A stretch of DNA of 64,000 nt, from assembly GCA_035084275.1 (NCBI GenBank), contig CM068757.1, positions 10,540,001 to 10,604,000 on the forward strand, given 5' to 3'. Shown here piece by piece: positions 5,286 to 57,669 of this stretch (positions are counted from its first letter, which is position 1; each line of letters opens with the position of its first letter). Below the pieces are notes generated by a model. That model worked only from the letters and a program-made list of their open reading frames with translations. It searched no databases and had not been told where the DNA came from. Made by a program: the position numbers and the translations under genes. Source of the stretch: Hydrolagus colliei. Taxonomy: Eukaryota.

Positions 5286-6329
5286 AAACCAACCAGGCTG
5301 GTTAAAAAGCAGGCAGATGATTGCCTAACTCTCCTTGACAAACACATATGCTCTGTCCTCCATACGCAGATACACACTTCCTCACATACATATGTAAACA
5401 GATAAATGCACATACACCACCAACACAACCACAAAATTACATTTGCATCACTTTTCACATCATGAAAGGTTATTTGCACATGCAGTGACTTGTATTTATA
5501 TAGCTCCCCTCACACAGTTTAGTCCCAGAGAAATTGGTACACATTAATGCCTAATATTCATTCATGCAAACATTCACAGGTGCACAGACACACACCCAAC
5601 ACCTGTGGATATATTTCAGCTTCCCTCTTGGTAATTTGTAGCCCATCCATGTGTGTTTCCTATTCTTACTTCCTCTATATTCATCCATATTTTATTTAAT
5701 TTGCCAATTGTCAGTCCATGCCCATGCTATCAAGCTCCCTTTGTTGAGAAACAAAATTGCTGGGATACTTCAGCAGGTCAGGCAGCATCTATGGAGAAAG
5801 GAAAGTGAGTCCACGACCTTTCTCTGTAGATGCCACCTGAACTGCTGAGTTTTCCCAGTAATTTCCATTTTTGTTTCAGACTTTCGGCATCTGCAGCATT
5901 GTGCGTTTTGTCTCTGTGTTGAGTGAGACCTTTACTGCTTCCTCTGATTTCCCAATTCTCCCTCTTCCCCCAACTTGGTAACACCTGCAAATGTAGTTAT
6001 GTTACACTGTGACTGTGAGTCCAGGTCATTCATTCAGGGGACAGTAGTGTAATGATTCTCAATCCACACAACTAATACATCCAAGACAACAGCCATAAAT
6101 CCACAACAGTTGCCCTCCCTTTTTATGCAAAGTCTGATGACCTCCTCATCTCCACCTGCATTCTCTGCTCCAATACTCTCTGCTCCCTTTTTGCAGTCAG
6201 CCGCCACTGGTACTCGTGGCGGCTGACTGCAGACCTCTCAGTTTTAAAAGGATCTAGTATTACTTCTGGCCTAAATTCCATGTAGGAGATAGATGTAACA
6301 TTCTGTGTCTAATTTTCAGGGTCCTCTCT

Positions 6330-6725
6330 GCCCGTTCAAGTGGATGTTAAAGATCCTGTGGTACTATCCGAAAAAAGAAGGGAGTTTCTTTCTCCCAGTG
6401 TCTTGGCCAACAATTCCCTGAATAAAAGAATTGTGGCTGTTTGTTGGGCTTTGCTCAAATAGACTGCCCTGTTCAATCCGCTTCACAGTGTATCATTTGA
6501 AGAGCTTTAAGATGCACTCCCAAAATGAAAGGGGCTACAGCAGAAAAACAATGTGGTCTTTCAATCCACGACTGTTTGCGGGGCAATGCTGAGTGCAATT
6601 ATGCAGGTCGTATTATGTCCACAAAATACTGTCAATCCACTTTACAATATATTCTCTGAAGCGCTTTGAAACATCTCAACAACACAACAAGGTGCTACAT
6701 CAAATGCAAAGATTATTATTATTCT
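6330..6725 (+). mobile_element. Deu-SINE 3' half followed by a second SINE tail
   Basis: GTGGATGTTAAAGATCCTGTGGTACTA..GTCTTGGCCAACAATT, then two tails in tandem. Confidence 0.7.
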
Positions 6726-8240: not shown

Positions 8241-8269
8241 TTCTGACTGTGGTTTGACCCCTTGTGCAG
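8241..8269 (+). other. Putative branch point and 3' splice acceptor of a 5'UTR intron of LRRC10B
   Basis: TTCTGAC (8241-8247) followed by TTTGACCCCTTGTGCAG|G, 22 nt before the first ATG. The upstream DNA is retroposon-derived, so it is unlikely to be a core promoter. Confidence 0.55.
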
Positions 8270-8291
8270 GGAGGAGGGGCTGCCTCCAAGA

Positions 8292-9182
8292 ATGAAAATG
8301 GGGAACGCTTTCCAGAAGGTTGCCTCTGCCTTACCCTTTGGCTCCGAAGACGGACTGAGCTGCATCAGCACCGACATGGAGGAAGTGAGCGCAGACAGGA
8401 TGCTGGATGTCAGCTACAAGAAGATAAAGAGGTTTCCATCTCCCATCTGCTCCTTCACCTATGTGGAGAAGTTGTACATTAGCAACAACCGATTGAGGGA
8501 GCTCCCTGGTGAGTTTGAGCAACTGGTGAACCTCAAGATCCTAGCCCTGGACTATAACAAGTTTGAAGATGTGCCTAAAGTCGTATGCACTTTGCACAAC
8601 CTCACAAGACTCTACCTTGGCAGCAATAGATTAATGACCATTCCTTCAGAAATCAGGAACTTAGAGAATCTCAGGTGTCTCTGGATAGAGAGCAACTATT
8701 TCAGAAAATTTCCCAAACAGTTACTTGACATGCCCAGTCTAAAGTCCCTCCAGATGGGAGACAACAGGCTGAAATCCCTGCCAGAGGACCTGGTCAGACT
8801 CCTAACTCTTCGAGGGTTTTGGTTGTACGGCAATAGATTTGAGGACTTCCCTCGGGTGCTGTTGAAGATGGAGTTTCTTGAGATCCTCGATGTAGACAAG
8901 AACAAGATCACTCAGTTCCCCAACATGGAACATCTGGAGAGGCTCAAGCTCTTTTGCTATGACCACAACCCTGCCAAGCGCCCCCCAAAGGTGGCAGACG
9001 GGGTAACACTGGTGGGAGATGGGGCAGAGGAACTCCTGGCTGCCAAAGCTCAGCAGATCCTGGACAACCAAGAGAACCAGGACAACCAGGAGCCTCTGCA
9101 TGGAATCCTGAAAAACGGCTCCACTGCATTGGAGCCAAAGAGGACCTATTCACCCTTAGACTGTTCTCAGGAGGAGACGTGA
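8292..9182 (+). CDS. LRRC10B: Leucine-rich repeat-containing protein 10B, uninterrupted CDS (alternative start ATG at 8298, MGNAF...)
   Basis: Long ORF with tandem LxxLxLxxNxL repeats. The motifs LTRLYLGSNRL, LRCLWIESN, LKSLQMGDNRL, LRGFWLYGNRFEDFP and YDHNP..PPKVAD.V.LVG.GA match my recollection of LRRC10B rather than LRRC10. ATG 8298 has a strong Kozak context (AAAATGG). The ORF-track start at 8262 is TTG and overlaps a splice acceptor. Confidence 0.9.
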   Translation: MKMGNAFQKVASALPFGSEDGLSCISTDMEEVSADRMLDVSYKKIKRFPSPICSFTYVEKLYISNNRLRELPGEFEQLVNLKILALDYNKFEDVPKVVCTLHNLTRLYLGSNRLMTIPSEIRNLENLRCLWIESNYFRKFPKQLLDMPSLKSLQMGDNRLKSLPEDLVRLLTLRGFWLYGNRFEDFPRVLLKMEFLEILDVDKNKITQFPNMEHLERLKLFCYDHNPAKRPPKVADGVTLVGDGAEELLAAKAQQILDNQENQDNQEPLHGILKNGSTALEPKRTYSPLDCSQEET

Positions 9183-9920: not shown

Positions 9921-10330
9921 TTACAGGCTGTCAATCTGGTCTGATCACTGCCGCAGTGTAATATACTAATAAGAGTCACTTGCCTTTATACTTGTGGTTT
10001 GGGACATCCTCCCAACATGAAATTACAAATGCAATTTCGTTGTTGTTGTTCTCATCTAAAATAGTCCTCTCGTAGCACTTTACTGACTAAAAATGATTCA
10101 AATGCTAATATGCTATCACAAGATCAGTTTGGATGAAGAAGGTCCTTCGGACTATCTGATCTCACTCTTTCAGAACACCCACCCTACCATTATAGTGCTG
10201 AGCTGTCTATTAAGTAAGTCTAGTGTCCTGGCCTCAACAACGCCTCCTGGTAACCCCATTAATTACCCTTGTCAGACAGTGCCTTCAATATATACATGCA
10301 GATTGTTGTTCAGTGATTTTTTAGTTATGA

Positions 10331-10572
10331 GGTTTTAGATAGTTAAACTCCAGCAGTTACCCCAACGCATACTATGGTGTCCCCAAACCTTGGCTCTTGC
10401 CAACCTGCGCCCAGTACTCCAGGGAATTAAGTAAGCAGGATCATCCCTCTGATGAGAGAGCGCACATTCCATTCCAGTACACAGGAATTTCCTTGAATGG
10501 AATTCTCAGTCTGTTTGGGTACTCTTAATAGTAGTGATGAGTTTCCACATGTGTCAGACATCCCACTGACCA
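10331..10572 (+). repeat. Unclassified dispersed repeat 'X', near-complete copy
   Basis: GGTTTTAGATAGTTAAACTCCAGCAGTTACC...GTGATGAGTTTCCACATGTGTCAGACA, aligns with 46829-47058 and 51368-51625. Confidence 0.7.
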
Positions 10573-10585
10573 CACCCAGCTAGGC

Positions 10586-21214: not shown

Positions 21215-21512
21215 AACAATAATAATAACAATAATAATAATATTACTTGCATTTGATATAGCACTTTTCACATCTTCTAGACATCTCAAAGAGCTTCACA
21301 GATTATTCTGTAAAGTGAATTGACTGTATATTTTGTGGGCGAAACGTGCCACCTGATTGCGTCCCACAAACAGTCATGAAAAATGATCCGTTTTTTTTTT
21401 ATTGAGGGAGTATTATCAGGCGTGTGGAGTAAGGAAACTTGCCCAAGATTTTGCCCTGCTTGAAATCGAACCCAGGTCTCTCGCTTGTAAGGCGAGTGCT
21501 CTAACCACTGAG
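21215..21512 (-). mobile_element. Short tRNA-like SINE
   Basis: (AAT)n tail; head ATCGAACCCAGGTCTCTCGCTTGTAAGGCGAGTGCTCTAACCACTGAG. Confidence 0.85.
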
Positions 21513-22156
21513 TGTTACTGACTGAGCTCGGATGACACCTGCACAGGCTTTGTAAGGGTTCTACACTCCGAATAGCCAGACCACTGCTCACCTTAAACTG
21601 TGATTTTTCTGTTAACGAGAGTTGACGTCCCTTTCTGTCCTACCCTGTAAGTGAAGACATTTACAGACATTAACTCAGGGATTAACTCCTGCCAGGCGCT
21701 TAATGAGAACTAACAACAGTGTTCAGAACAGGGAATTAGAACTCACTCTCACTGACATCTCAACATCTGTCACGGAGCCACAGATTGCGTTGCGCTGACA
21801 GTGGCTCCTTTGCACAGAGGAAAGTACCATCGCTGCTCAGAAACCTGTGGGTTCAAGCCCCACATCACGACCTTGAGCTCACCATCCAGGCTAACGCTCC
21901 AGTGCAGCAGTGCAGTGCTGGGGAACGCTGCATTGTCAGACGTGACATGTTTGGATGAGATGTTGAACCAAGGTCCTGTTCAGGTGGACGTCATTCATCG
22001 AAAGGCTGTTTGTCGATCGTTGCCTACAAATGCACAGTCACTACACTCAACAGCTTAGCCTGTGAAGAGATTTGAGATGTTTTGGCATTTTAAGAACTCT
22101 AATGGAAGGATGATGGGTTACGTACGACATGAACAGCAGAGGTGACCCCCCTTTGG

Positions 22157-22190
22157 TGTAATACCATTCAGCACCAGCAGAGGGAAGCAC
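22157..22190 (+). promoter_or_regulatory. Candidate CTCF site with upstream motif
   Basis: TGTAATACC, a spacer, then CACCAGCAGAGGGAAGC. Resembles the CTCF upstream motif (TGCAGTACC-like) plus the core CCAGCAGAGGGCAGC with one mismatch. Confidence 0.4.
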
Positions 22191-22369
22191 AGTCCACAAT
22201 ACAGTTCCTCTTCTGCAGATCAAGAGCGAGTGTCTCAGGCAGATATTTATTATTGATCATATTTCATTGCAGCAAATGCCATGGGGTGGGGGGAGCGGGG
22301 GGAGAACTTTACAATGCAACAGTTGATAGTAAGCAATTGACATTAAGCACAAACAAACGTGAAGAAAAT

Positions 22370-22705
22370 TGATCAATCTTATTTGGGGGATTGTTGGCCA
22401 GTACACCAGGAGAAACTCCCATTTCTTTTGCAACAGCTTCGCAAGATCTTTTGCGTCTAACTAGTTGGACGCACTCACTTTACTGTAGTGTCATAAGCTT
22501 AAGCGCCCTGAGTAGCTACCCTTCATAAGAGGCGCAACGGGATCTCAGTTTAACAAGCTTGTCAGATAGCGCTAATAAGCTGATACTTATCTCCAACACA
22601 CTCTGGGGTGCGCAAGCCTTGACTCTTGACAACCTACAGTGTGGGCCTTAAACCCACAACTCTCTGACCCAGAGGCAAGAGGGGAATAACTAAACAAGGC
22701 TGACA
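22370..22705 (-). mobile_element. Deu-SINE copy with remodelled, self-complementary middle
   Basis: Both flanks match the Deu-SINE (GGGGATTGTTGGCCAGTACACCAGGAGAAACTCCC; AACCCACAACTCTCTGACCCAGAGGCAAGAG..GGCTGAC). The middle is ~60 nt longer than in the 13.4 kb copy and highly diverged. Confidence 0.75.
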
Positions 22706-22999
22706 GATAAGCAGGAGGTGAGGGGAGTGGGGAGGGCAGGGTTGGTCCGAGCATTCCTCAATCTTTTTTTCTAGGGAAATAAATATGGCTCAGACAGAGA
22801 GATAACAGCGCAGAACTGCCATTAATACAGGGGGTAATGGAGCAATCTCTTTTATTGTATAAATTTAGATTCTACGGAAATAAAAGCTGTCAAACTATAT
22901 ATTAAGAAGCATTGAAATGGATTTTTGATGGCTCCTTGTAAACGTACCACTACACTGCTGTTTGCAATGCTGAACAAAACAGTCAGAGGCTATAATATC

Positions 23000-23240
23000 A
23001 GGCATTAAACCGAGGTCCTGTGTGCCTGATCAGGTGGACGTTAAAGATCCCATGGTACTGGTGGAAAAGATAAGGGAGTTTCTCTCTCCGGGTGTCCTGG
23101 CCAACAATGCCACAAATAAAATTGGTTCCACAAACAACCATGGCTGTTTGTGGGACATTGCTGTGCGTAACTGGCTGCTGTGTTTTTGCCCATGAAATAC
23201 GTTATCACTCCACTTGCAGTATATTCTATGAAGGATTTGC
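23000..23240 (+). mobile_element. Deu-SINE central and 3' part
   Basis: TTAAACCGAGGTCC..GGTGGACGTTAAAGATCCCATGG..GGTGTCCTGGCCAAC. Confidence 0.85.
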
Positions 23241-23334
23241 CAAAGACTCAGCCTCAAGGTCAAAGTTCTGACCAGGAGGACATCTGCCCAAAGGGTTGAG
23301 TTCAAGACCTCAGAAGGTGGGTGCTGATGGCACA

Positions 23335-23450
23335 TAGCACACACACTGCATCACACTCACACACTGCACAGCACCACACCTCACACACCACATACACCAA
23401 ACCACACAACACACATAACAAACAAACCACACCACACCTCACACACCAAG
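23335..23450 (+). repeat. CA-rich degenerate microsatellite
   Basis: CACAC/CACCACAC tract. Confidence 0.8.
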
Positions 23451-23674
23451 TCACAATGTGTTAGAATCTCTGCAATAACCTCTGCCTCTTCTGCTGAAAA
23501 CACAACTACATGTGGAACTGTGGTGGAGTGTGCAAACTCCCCCTCACCCCTGTTTATTAGGATATTGGTAGAATCTCAGAGGGTTGAGCCTGGGAATGAG
23601 TTATGGTTTAACAGCGTAGGAGGCGTGTGACTGGAAATAAGATTGCCCCCTCCACTCACCTCCACCATTGCCTG

Positions 23675-49830: not shown

Positions 49831-51367
49831 ACAACATCAGCATCATCATCATGTATCTTGGTCCATTTTCTTTTACAGAAACGTGTTGTACATCATTAAT
49901 ACACATTCACAGTTGCCCATGAATATGAATGTTTAACAAGACCAGCGATTATTCTCCTGACTGTTTACACCAGTCTGCTAGAAATCAGTTTGCTTTGCAT
50001 TTACCCTCTGAGCAACGTGCAGAAACGGCAGTCCTGTCTCCACACAAGGCACAGAATGTGTAGCTACACAAGGGATTTGACGACCTCAAACTCACAACTA
50101 ATGGAAACTTCCAGCTGAGACACACACACACGCAGATAATCTGGAGGTGAACTGCAGTGACTGAGACTAATATCTGAACAAGATGTCCATCCACTTGGGA
50201 ATTTAACGCAAGCTGCTGAGTAGTCTTCGTGGAAAATAAGTACATTTAGAAAAAATTGCTGTGGAAAATTTTCCCTTGACTTCCTGATTACCATTCGCCT
50301 CTGAATCAATAGGCTATGAGTACAACCCACATCACGGATTGTCTCCAGGTGTTTAATACCCCCAGCTCGTATGCCAAGCTAGGAGTATTAAACACCTTGG
50401 GATGTCCTCCAGGTGTGAAAGTTGCTGTATAAATGTAAATATGTATTATAAGGTACCATATTAAATGTAAGATTTAATATTATTTGACCATCAGGTGACA
50501 CTTGAAGCTCAGGATTGCCTGTTTGGGTAGACAATAACAACAACAAAATTATATTTGTGCAATGCCTTTCACATCAGGAGAAGCAGTTGCTGCACATTTG
50601 TCTATAAAAACAATCACTGCACTTGACCGTAATCACTGCTCCTTGTGACATTTCTACACACTAAGAAGCTGAAAGATGCAAGTTCTTCCTATATCTTCAA
50701 CAGTTATACTTTACAGTCTGGTTTACACTCTTGCTGTGATTTCTCAGGCAGAATGGACAAAAACAGAGCTATTCAATTTCTTATAAACAGAATTTGTTAG
50801 TGAGATTTATACACAATTGGAAGTCTAAACACTCATTTTTCGCCTCCCCCTCACCACAAGTCTCATTCCTCTGTTATTCTCTTCAATAATATCTCTCTCG
50901 ATTACCAGCCGGCATTGATTTCACTCGTGTTCCCAAAAACGTATTCATTTTTTTCTCCTCGAGAACATTATTTCCTCCATTATTCCTTCTTCCATGACCC
51001 ACTCCATCTTCTTCACCTCAGTGACATTTTGAGCTCTTGCAAACAAAATACATTCTGTCATATGCCAGGCATTGAAAAGGAATTTTGTTCTCACCACTCT
51101 GAACAGCAGCAAGATTTTCTATTGCTTTGTGCTTTTCTCTTCCCAAGGCCAAATTTTCTTGCGCTAGACAATCTGTTGTCTTGAATGGTACATGAATTTA
51201 CAATCCAATCCAATCTGTCCGCGTCTATCCATGTCTAGCCAGACACCATCTGAATTCAGCCTCCGCAAAGTTTTCCTCTACTCTGCAAATAGTTTTGAAT
51301 TTAAGTAATCTTTCTGCAACTTTCTCTTTCTCACTCCGTCTCTTCAAACAGTGCTAGCAATGACTAT

Positions 51368-51625
51368 GTGGTTTTAGCTCGTCAGCCTTCAGGAGCCCCC
51401 AACAGATCATCTGGGCTCCCTAAGCCTTGGCTCTTGTCAACATGTACCTATAGAATTAGGTAACCAAGATGTACCCCTCCAGGGAGAGAGTGTGCATTCC
51501 ATTCCAACAATCTATCTCTGGGATTTCTATCTTTAGGTCGTGTGCATGTAATTCTCCATTCAGTTTTGTGACTTATAAGCATCGTGATGGGTTTCCAAAT
51601 GTGTCAGACACCTGGCTGAGCAAAA
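51368..51625 (+). repeat. Unclassified dispersed repeat 'X'
   Basis: GTGGTTTTAGCT..CCTTGGCTCTTGTCAAC..AATTAGGTAA..CATTCCATTCCA..GTGTCAGACACCTGGCTGAGCAAAA. Confidence 0.7.
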
Positions 51626-51764
51626 AAATAATAATCTCCTTTGAAGATCATCAAAATTATTTGATGAATGATCTGCCACTTGACCTATCGCACCCTGGGT
51701 TTGACAGGAGGTAAGACCGATCTTATTTCCAATCATCTTCTCTTTTTCAACAATCATAATAATC

Positions 51765-56980: not shown

Positions 56981-57669
56981 CTACCTTTGATTATACTTTT
57001 GATTATACCCTAGACTTTGAGCTCCCAGTGTCGTTTGACACTGCAATGGAGTTTTGGGGATGCGTTGGATTATCAGAGATAAAATTGGTCATTCACTTCA
57101 TTAATATTGTTATATATTATATATATGTTAATGTCCACCCAATTATTATTAATTATAATTGTCATTATTGGTACCATTCTTAATTATAATTCATGATAAT
57201 TAATAACGATAATAATAATCCTTGCATCTAATATATCACCTTTTATGTTAGGAGGACTGCTCAAGGCACTTCCTAGAATTTCATAACATAATAATATTAA
57301 CATTCAGCATTATATATATAATGCCCCAAATTCACGTTAGAATCCTAGAGTGCTTGATTTGGTGGGAAAGGTGTGTCAACAGGACTGAACGGTTTGCTCT
57401 TTCAAAAACAAACCTACAGACACGGTGGGTAAATTCTACAGTTCTCCTCCAACTGATTTAAAACACTGCACGTTTTTTTTTACAACAAAAAAAGTGAATA
57501 TAAATAACAGTTGGATATCACCCCCTGGAGAAACATTAAACTCTCATTAAAAAATAAATGAACATTAAAAAAAACATGAGCTATTTCTGTTCTGTGAAGT
57601 TAACAAACCTTTAATGGGACACAGGGAAATTCGACTCGTAAATCAGTGATGAGAACAGCTTTCAAATCA

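What the first reader, a model, noticed from the sequence alone, without database searches (positions are those of the whole stretch)
22425..22645. Deu-SINE whose middle is rebuilt into a CpG-retaining, palindrome-packed ~160-nt rod-like fold-back
Seen: both flanks are ordinary Deu-SINE, but the centre is ~60 nt longer and far more diverged than sibling copies. It keeps many CpGs and is crowded with palindromes: TGCGTCTAACTAGTTGGACGCA (22452-22473, 10 of 11 pairs plus one G:U), GCTTAAGC, GTAGCTAC, ACAAGCTTGT (22553-22562), TAGCGCTA and TGCGCA. Complementary blocks nest around one axis (~22557): ATAAG 22525-29 / CTTAT 22586-90; GCGCCCTGAGT 22503-13 / ACTCTGGGGTGCGC 22600-13; AAGCTT 22495-500 / AAGCCT 22614-19; ACTGTAG 22482-88 / CTACAGT 22634-40. 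Known: Deu-domain SINEs such as AmnSINE1 have been exapted as conserved elements. Inference: the substitutions look directed towards self-complementarity rather than neutral decay. This could be a structured RNA downstream of a degenerate Pol III head, an undescribed hairpin-forming SINE subfamily, or the product of repeated quasi-palindrome template switching.
Basis: partly seen in the sequence, partly recalled or inferred. Interest (0 to 1): 0.72.

Follow-up and report, generated by a model that had tools for sequence, protein, structure and literature searches.

The report
Palindrome-rich copying scar inside a SINE
One old mobile-element copy in a chimaera (elephant-shark-like fish) has its middle replaced by a piece of another repeat plus a back-to-front copy of its own neighbourhood; the result is predicted to fold into a hairpin, but related fish show no clear sign that it is preserved, so it is likely a one-off scar of sloppy DNA copying rather than a working RNA gene.

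Summary
A decayed, tail-less SINE (minus strand, 22348-22708) carries a ~64-nt insertion (22463-22535) and has ~85 nt swapped for a fragment of a second old repeat (22555-22637, E 5.5e-17). Palindromes of 8 bp or more are truly crowded (6 versus 0.84 expected; 1 of 10,000 shuffles), and 22474-22513 is a gapped inverted copy of 22600-22645 (1 of 2,000 shuffles), equally on both strands and as DNA. The whole rod is only modestly stable (z -2.3), and -1.4 on the strand a Pol III head would read. It is single-copy and real: contigs from three other studies bridge it. In relatives the centre changes as fast as its flanks, CpGs decay (3 of 9 changes), no compensatory change is seen, and this allele lacks 15 nt. 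Best reading: an inherited complex templated-insertion scar from polymerase template switching (snap-back and trans copying), a known mutation class. A selected RNA is not excluded: divergence is only 2-4%, and the outer stem has few changes.

The parts
22348..22462 (-). Body of the host SINE (Deu-type by recalled motif; probably SacSINE1-CM); ends at about 22348 without the 3' tail
   Evidence: 88 of 114 aligned bases match the sibling majority; no tail match below 22348; profile hit 22348-22708, E 1.6e-28
22426..22454 (.). Equal-length rewritten tract in the SINE body: small hairpin 22426-22446 and palindrome AAGATCTT 22443-22450 around the SINE's own GATC
   Evidence: cluster of mismatches to siblings; helix probability 0.94
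22452..22473 (.). 22-bp zero-spacer hairpin at the left junction; right arm (22463-22473) is a fold-back copy of the SINE's left arm
   Evidence: 91% complementary; the right arm keeps the G that pairs with the C siblings have at 22458, so the left arm changed after copying; broken further in X7 and X8 at 22468 and 22470
22463..22535 (.). Insertion X, about 64 nt net, in place of about 10 nt of SINE
   Evidence: 104 versus 40 nt between SINE anchors; no other copy in G000
22474..22513 (+). 5' arm: gapped inverted copy of 22600-22645; also weakly like the SINE/L2 3' tail in inverted orientation
   Evidence: 33 of 40 bases identical to the reverse complement with 7 gaps; duplex test 1 of 2,000, local-alignment test 159 of 3,000; tail likeness 74 of 2,000 and 24 of 2,000 shuffles
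22494..22521 (.). New palindromes TAAGCTTA, GCTTAAGC (overlapping) and GTAGCTAC (12 bp in all four other runs, which have G at 22511; one inner change in X6)
22536..22554 (-). Short surviving piece of the host SINE
   Evidence: aligns to the sibling majority
22553..22638 (+). Fragment of a second, old, about 550-bp interspersed repeat ('family 2', unclassified), replacing about 85 nt of SINE; its AAGCTT and AGCGCT cores are inherited, its GCGC at 22610-22613 is private
   Evidence: 39 other matches in G000; profile hit 22555-22637, E 5.5e-17; L055, L025 and L019 share the cores; the GCGC pattern occurs once in G000
22587..22588 (.). Site where this allele lacks 15 nt that X4, X6 and X8 carry; the extra piece lies between TATC repeats and adds a 6-bp inverted repeat (read by eye)
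   Evidence: table 4
22600..22645 (+). 3' arm: end of the family-2 fragment running across the junction into the SINE head
   Evidence: junction pattern unique in G000
22639..22708 (-). Degenerate tRNA-type SINE head; A box lost at its place, B box with one mismatch
   Evidence: box motifs recalled; ARAGORN finds no tRNA

Best explanation
This is a single, inherited mosaic inside one decayed SINE copy, most likely the scar of a polymerase that repeatedly switched templates while repairing or replicating this spot, and likely without function. Shown: the SINE centre is replaced by a fragment of a second repeat and by a ~64-nt insertion; the insertion begins with a fold-back copy of the adjacent SINE bases, continues as a gapped inverted copy of the far junction, and holds new zero-spacer palindromes; it predates the split of the related species laid. 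Inferred: a break or stalled fork in the SINE was patched by microhomology-primed synthesis, copying in trans from a family-2 element (junction microhomology of about 3 nt on each side, read by eye) and in cis by snap-back on its own nascent end, as Pol theta end joining (SD-MMEJ) and MMBIR do; because the 5' arm mirrors the SINE/family-2 junction and the private GCGC, it was made during or after the swap. The fold is a by-product of that copying, and since then the locus has changed like its flanks. Whether it was one event or several, and which polymerase, is not resolved.
For: Mosaic anatomy. Strand-neutral inverted repeat, significant as DNA and on both RNA strands. Zero-spacer palindromes, several inside the long stem and competing with it. 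Polarity at 22458/22467: perfect when made, decayed later. Single copy. Orthologous contigs from 3 other studies: 9 substitutions in 194 nt of centre versus 16 in 536 nt of flank, p 0.36; 3 of the 9 hit CpG (3 of 16 versus 6 of 173 bases, p 0.031); one paired change breaks a pair (22468), four swap a Watson-Crick pair with G-U, four are unpaired, none is compensatory; a 15-nt deletion is polymorphic within the species. The mutation class is documented: Pol theta alternates snap-back, trans and untemplated synthesis (PMC4912351, passages); germline 'complex' templated insertions from up to five templates (PMC8421209, passages); template switches create hairpins in one step (PMC7954356, passages). 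A second SINE copy in the same window also carries a perfect 16-bp-arm hairpin in a replaced middle.
Against: The outer stem has only 1 listed change in 86 nt (up to 3, since X6 has unlisted differences) against 8 in the other 108 nt: p 0.045 at 1, 0.19-0.35 at 2-3, and 0.22 once CpG events are removed; that one change (22511) turns G-U into A-U, and the two stem CpGs are intact. Divergence is only 2-4%, so weak selection would be missed. Seven gaps in a 40-nt arm is a lot for one copying event, and exact local inverted k-mers cover the insertion only modestly better than background (164-267 of 3,418 tiles at k 7-8, 734 at k 6). About 165 nt with 7 or more switches is far longer than the 7-bp median Pol theta insertion. 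No donor copy of family 2 was identified among 37 other hits in 264 kb.
Confidence: 0.68

Rival explanations
1. The chimera was made at insertion: an L2-type reverse transcriptase jumped from SINE RNA to family-2 RNA and back, with snap-back synthesis on the cDNA, and the product has been neutral since.
For: Template switching between SINEs is the accepted route to hybrid SINEs (PMC4824008, passages; PMC5499810, parts 1-3). The family-2 piece replaces a SINE piece of similar length in register. If family 2's coding remnant is on the minus strand (recalled Ingi/Vingi-like motif), both donors are in the same sense.
Against: The 3' tail needed for priming is missing, and tail-like motifs sit inverted in the middle (weak). 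Family 2 has an A-run at the other end, so its sense is uncertain, and no tool classed it. No target-site duplication was looked for or seen.
Confidence: 0.14
2. However it arose, the outer 35-bp stem has been kept or improved by selection as a structured RNA element (pri-miRNA-like hairpin, intronic or lncRNA stem).
For: Plus-strand fold z -2.74 while 12 sibling copies give -1.42 to +1.30; outer stem of 35 bp; only 1-3 changes in it, the listed one improving a pair. SacSINE1-CM-like sequence lies in two reported elephant shark miRNA precursors (PMC5499810), and template-switch hairpins have become miRNAs in primates (10.1101/2023.04.19.537475, abstract).
Against: No compensatory change; centre not slower than flanks; CpG decay; polymorphic 15-nt deletion. 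The 'loop' is 86-101 nt and branched, the stem has six bulges or internal loops. No Rfam family near threshold. Pol III boxes broken and on the other strand.
Confidence: 0.13
3. It is one member of a low-copy hairpin-forming chimeric SINE subfamily.
For: The own-genome DNA search skips common words and scores only the best candidates, so old diverged copies could be missed.
Against: Exact or 2-mismatch patterns over both junctions and the centre hit only this locus, plus one ordinary family-2 copy; none of 39 family-2 matches extends past query base 197 into the SINE head; depth over 22472-22533 comes from the orthologous contigs alone.
Confidence: 0.04
4. Assembly artefact.
For: Fold-back palindromes can be sequencing or assembly chimeras (general knowledge).
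Against: Contigs from 3 other studies bridge the centre with ordinary differences: X4 22391-23000, X8 22391-22703, X6 22443-22544 and 22515-22987, X7 22447-22591.
Confidence: 0.01

Closest known systems
Complex templated insertions (MMBIR-linked MMB-TI, 'complex' class; PMC8421209)
   Same: Germline insertion stitched from several templates in both orientations, with microhomology at joins; no gross rearrangement.
   Different: Here it is old and fixed across related species, so templates are no longer exact; one template is a remote repeat with no identified donor; unusually many short palindromes.
Pol theta end joining / SD-MMEJ snap-back insertions (PMC4912351, PMC5728401)
   Same: Deletion plus insertion, fold-back copies of flanking bases, alternation of cis and trans templates.
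   Different: Far longer than the typical product (median 7 bp in cells; remote inserts over 30 bp were ascribed to another mechanism); polymerase not testable from sequence.
Short-range template-switch mutation clusters and the hairpins they make (PMC7954356; 10.1101/2023.04.19.537475)
   Same: One-step creation of inverted repeats seen as clustered substitutions; raw material for new hairpins.
   Different: Those give one near-perfect inverted repeat; here at least five local palindromes plus a gapped 40-nt arm; no expression shown.
SacSINE1-CM, the Deu-domain SINE of Callorhinchus milii (PMC5499810)
   Same: Host lineage fits (LRRC10B 99% identical to C. milii); tRNA-type head, abundant old copies, L2-type tail in siblings.
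   Different: This copy lacks the tail and part of the body; family name rests on a recalled motif, not on alignment to the published consensus.
Exapted Deu-SINEs such as AmnSINE1 (recalled)
   Different: No sign of conservation: centre changes as fast as flanks over the 2-4% divergence tested.

Membership tests
DeuSINE / SacSINE1-CM | Central Deu domain matching the published consensus | not testable with these tools
   No repeat library; the paper's supplements could not be read. Assignment is from memory plus the paper's statement that C. milii has one CORE and one Deu family.
DeuSINE / SacSINE1-CM | Flanks belong to the genome's abundant SINE family | tested here: met
   Profile from 30 siblings hits 22348-22708, E 1.6e-28.
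Active or transcribable SINE | Intact A and B boxes and LINE-derived 3' tail | tested here: not met
   A box lost, B box one mismatch, tail absent (box motifs recalled).
New SINE subfamily | Several dispersed copies sharing the diagnostic centre | tested here: not met
Complex templated insertion (MMB-TI / TMEJ scar) | Inserted sequence traceable to nearby inverted templates | tested here: met
   22463-22473 and 22474-22513; about 22514-22535 only partly traceable.
Complex templated insertion (MMB-TI / TMEJ scar) | Microhomology at the switch points | tested here: inconclusive
   About 3 nt at each family-2 junction by eye; not tested against chance, donor unknown.
Complex templated insertion (MMB-TI / TMEJ scar) | Pre-event allele without the insertion | tested here: inconclusive
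   All four runs laid carry the mosaic; the pre-event state is inferred from sibling copies only.
Complex templated insertion (MMB-TI / TMEJ scar) | Dependence on Pol theta or a BIR polymerase | not testable with these tools
   Historical germline event.
Conserved structured RNA | Compensatory base-pair changes and slower change than flanks | tested here: inconclusive
   0 compensatory changes among 9; centre 9 of 194 versus flanks 16 of 536; outer stem 1-3 of 86; low power.
Conserved structured RNA | Match to a described RNA family | tested here: not met
   Rfam, 21500-23500: best E 2.8, all far below gathering scores.
pri-miRNA | About 35-bp stem with a short unstructured apical loop | tested here: not met
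   Stem totals 35 bp but with six interruptions and an 86-nt branched interior (criteria).
pri-miRNA | Processed 22-nt reads from both arms | not testable with these tools
   No RNA run was available to lay.
Ingi/Vingi-derived non-autonomous LINE (family 2) | Homology to the post-RT region of Ingi/Vingi proteins | tested here: inconclusive
   Resemblance is recalled; atlas search blank; the one protein hit is a repetitive unrelated protein.

The most novel reading that the evidence does not exclude
A repair scar stitched from two repeats created a 35-bp stem in one step, and the outer stem has since been held by selection as a new chimaera-specific structured RNA element or hairpin gene downstream of LRRC10B, while its palindromic interior decays: a de novo RNA gene caught soon after birth.
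Probability: 0.1. Interest if true: 0.65.

Novelty: new member of a known kind. Interest (0 to 1): 0.27.

Why it matters
As it stands it is an unusually elaborate natural example of multi-template copying fixed in a slowly evolving vertebrate genome, and a warning that palindrome-rich 'rods' inside repeats can be repair scars with inherited CpGs rather than selected RNAs. It would matter more if a genome-wide scan showed such scars to be common in chimaeras, or if the outer stem proved to be expressed and conserved, since that would document a hairpin gene born from two transposon fragments in one event.

Tried and rejected
Sequencing runs: no RNA holder listed. Only 4 of the 10 listed runs were laid (X4, X6, X7, X8); the most distant-looking ones (X9, X10, small shares) and those of the possible source sample were not, so deeper divergence and whether the 15-nt deletion is heterozygous remain open. 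The longer alleles were not folded; their effect was judged pair by pair from positions. No related whole genomes are held. Rfam: nothing. tRNA scan: nothing. Gene context: besides LRRC10B at 8247-9182, 150 of 326 unmasked open frames gave no Pfam hit over cut-off and no C2 exon lies in the window, so intron versus intergenic is unresolved. Donor search among 37 other family-2 hits in the window and 200 kb around it: best score 64 versus 166 for self, no donor. SINE-tail origin of the insertion: suggestive only (74 of 2,000; profile E 0.51, 24 of 2,000), kept as a lead. Classing family 2 by protein search failed. Hammerhead or HDV-like ribozyme: considered by eye only, no core seen, and no Rfam hit. 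Earlier notes near this place or by sequence: none. Paper searches listed nothing describing this locus; the library is partial, and supplements of PMC5499810 (consensus alignments) could not be read.

Full report
Setting. The window is G000:C24:10540001-10604000 of a 1.0-Gb genome. Its one clear gene is a single-exon LRRC10B at 8247-9182, 99% identical to the Callorhinchus milii protein, so the animal is a plownose chimaera or close to it. The finding lies about 13 kb downstream; no other coding exon was found (150 of 326 unmasked frames scanned).

Check of the observation. Palindromes of 8 bp or more number 6 in 22452-22640 against 0.84 in shuffles (1 of 10,000), and in 352,285 bases only a CGATAT-type simple repeat is denser; shorter palindromes are not or barely enriched. 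The plus strand folds at -68 kcal/mol, z -2.74; the minus strand, which a SINE promoter would read, at z -0.89. Without the left hairpin the rod gives z -2.27, a level that 24 of 124 window tiles reach on one strand (14 shuffles each); 12 sibling SINE copies give -1.42 to +1.30. Only the outer 35 bp are well determined. The two arms, 22474-22513 and 22600-22645, are complementary beyond chance (1 of 2,000 shuffles as plus RNA, 1 of 2,000 as minus RNA, 0 of 2,000 as DNA; 2 of 6,368 window 40-mers pair as well), though a plain local alignment test is marginal (159 of 3,000). CpG content is raised but not rare (6% of windows).

What it is made of. Sibling alignments place a SINE on the minus strand from 22708 to 22348, with broken promoter boxes and no 3' tail. 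Between two SINE anchors normally 40 nt apart there are 104 nt (insertion X, 22463-22535). After 19 nt of surviving SINE, about 85 nt of SINE are gone and 22555-22637 belongs to a second old repeat, family 2 (39 other matches; profile E 5.5e-17). Other family-2 copies (L055, L025, L019) already carry the ACAAGCTTG and AGCGCT cores, so two of the six palindromes are largely inherited; the GCGC at 22610-22613 is private. Insertion X starts with a fold-back copy of the 11 SINE bases before it; its G at 22467 pairs with the C that siblings have at 22458, so the hairpin was perfect when made and decayed afterwards. It continues as a gapped inverted copy of the family-2/SINE junction (33 of 40 identical) with new palindromes, and resembles the SINE/L2 tail weakly. 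A further rewritten tract lies at 22429-22446. Exact local inverted k-mers cover X only modestly more than background (top 5-8% at k 7-8, not at k 6). Family 2 could not be classed; an Ingi/Vingi-like reading is recalled.

Copy number and reality. DNA and pattern searches over the centre and both junctions find this locus alone, plus one ordinary family-2 copy. Contigs from three other studies bridge the centre (4 of 10 listed runs laid), so it is not an assembly artefact and is older than the split from the related organisms.

Evolution since. One search lists 9 substitutions in the centre: 22468, 22470 (X7, X8), 22511 (all four runs), 22527, 22536, 22562 (X6-X8), 22514, 22570, 22580 (X6), and 15 extra bases behind 22587 in X4, X6 and X8 (X7's contig ends 4 bases later). 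X7 and X8 are low-depth contigs, but each of their centre changes is shared by at least two runs. Centre versus flanks: 9 of 194 versus 16 of 536, p 0.36. Three of the nine hit CpGs (p 0.031), so CpGs are being lost, not held. On the predicted fold, 22468 breaks a pair, 22470, 22511, 22570 and 22580 swap a Watson-Crick pair with G-U, four are unpaired, none compensates. Relatives have longer palindromes at 22510-22521 and 22523-22528 than the window. Against my reading: the outer stem has just 1 listed change in 86 nt (up to 3 with unlisted X6 differences), p 0.045 to 0.35 against the rest of the centre and not significant against the flank, and that change improves a pair in the window's allele. 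With 2-4% divergence the test is weak.

Mechanism. The pattern of deletion plus foreign fragment, fold-back at the junction, inverted copy of the far junction and zero-spacer palindromes fits microhomology-primed template switching at a break or stalled fork. Pol theta alternates snap-back, trans-templated and untemplated synthesis, with a median insertion of 7 bp in cells and remote inserts ascribed to another route (PMC4912351, passages); SD-MMEJ makes new inverted repeats by snap-back (PMC5728401, passages); human germlines carry complex templated insertions from up to five templates (PMC8421209, passages); short-range switches create stable hairpins in one step (PMC7954356, passages), some of which became miRNAs (10.1101/2023.04.19.537475, abstract and outline). 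The anatomy, single copy and allele pattern are shown; the polymerase, the number of events and the lack of function are inferred. Reverse-transcriptase jumping at insertion is the main mechanistic rival (PMC4824008 and PMC5786205, passages; PMC5499810, parts 1-3 of 6) but fits the missing tail poorly. Earlier AI notes describe similar scars in other genomes; they are leads only.

Verdict. Real, single-copy, more palindromic than chance, but best read as a new and rather elaborate member of a known class of copying scars. No description of this locus appeared in the paper searches. Interest 0.27; about one chance in ten that the outer stem is a selected RNA.

Noticed in passing
window 8247-9182 (+): Single-exon LRRC10B, 99% identical to the Callorhinchus milii protein.
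   Followed up: yes
window 6192-6231: Perfect inverted repeat with 16-bp arms and 8-nt loop in the replaced middle of another SINE copy (6044-6545); tile z about -7.5. Possibly the same kind of event, or a small inserted element.
   Followed up: partly
window 5748-5877: Hairpin with 48-nt arms, 81% complementary, tile z about -6.9; probably a small fold-back transposon, not examined.
   Followed up: no
L002-L030, L055, L058-L068; window 10323-10576, 51346-51642 and others: Family 2: an old, about 550-bp interspersed repeat, 38 profile hits in 264 kb, copies 70-80% alike, A-run at one end; reading on the other strand recalls Ingi/Vingi LINEs but no tool confirmed it.
   Followed up: partly
window 22374-22462 and 23032-23124: The neighbouring SINE (22757-23298) lies in the opposite orientation, forming a long inverted repeat with the host about 600 nt away, which could have made the spot break-prone (inference).
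   Followed up: no
L034:323-511 and 953-1141; L004:1093-1281: CGATAT-type palindrome-rich, CpG-rich repeat shared between loci, probably part of a DNA transposon.
   Followed up: no
window 57062-57250: AT-rich stretch with 18 palindromes of 6 bp or more, including repeated AATTATAATT.
   Followed up: no
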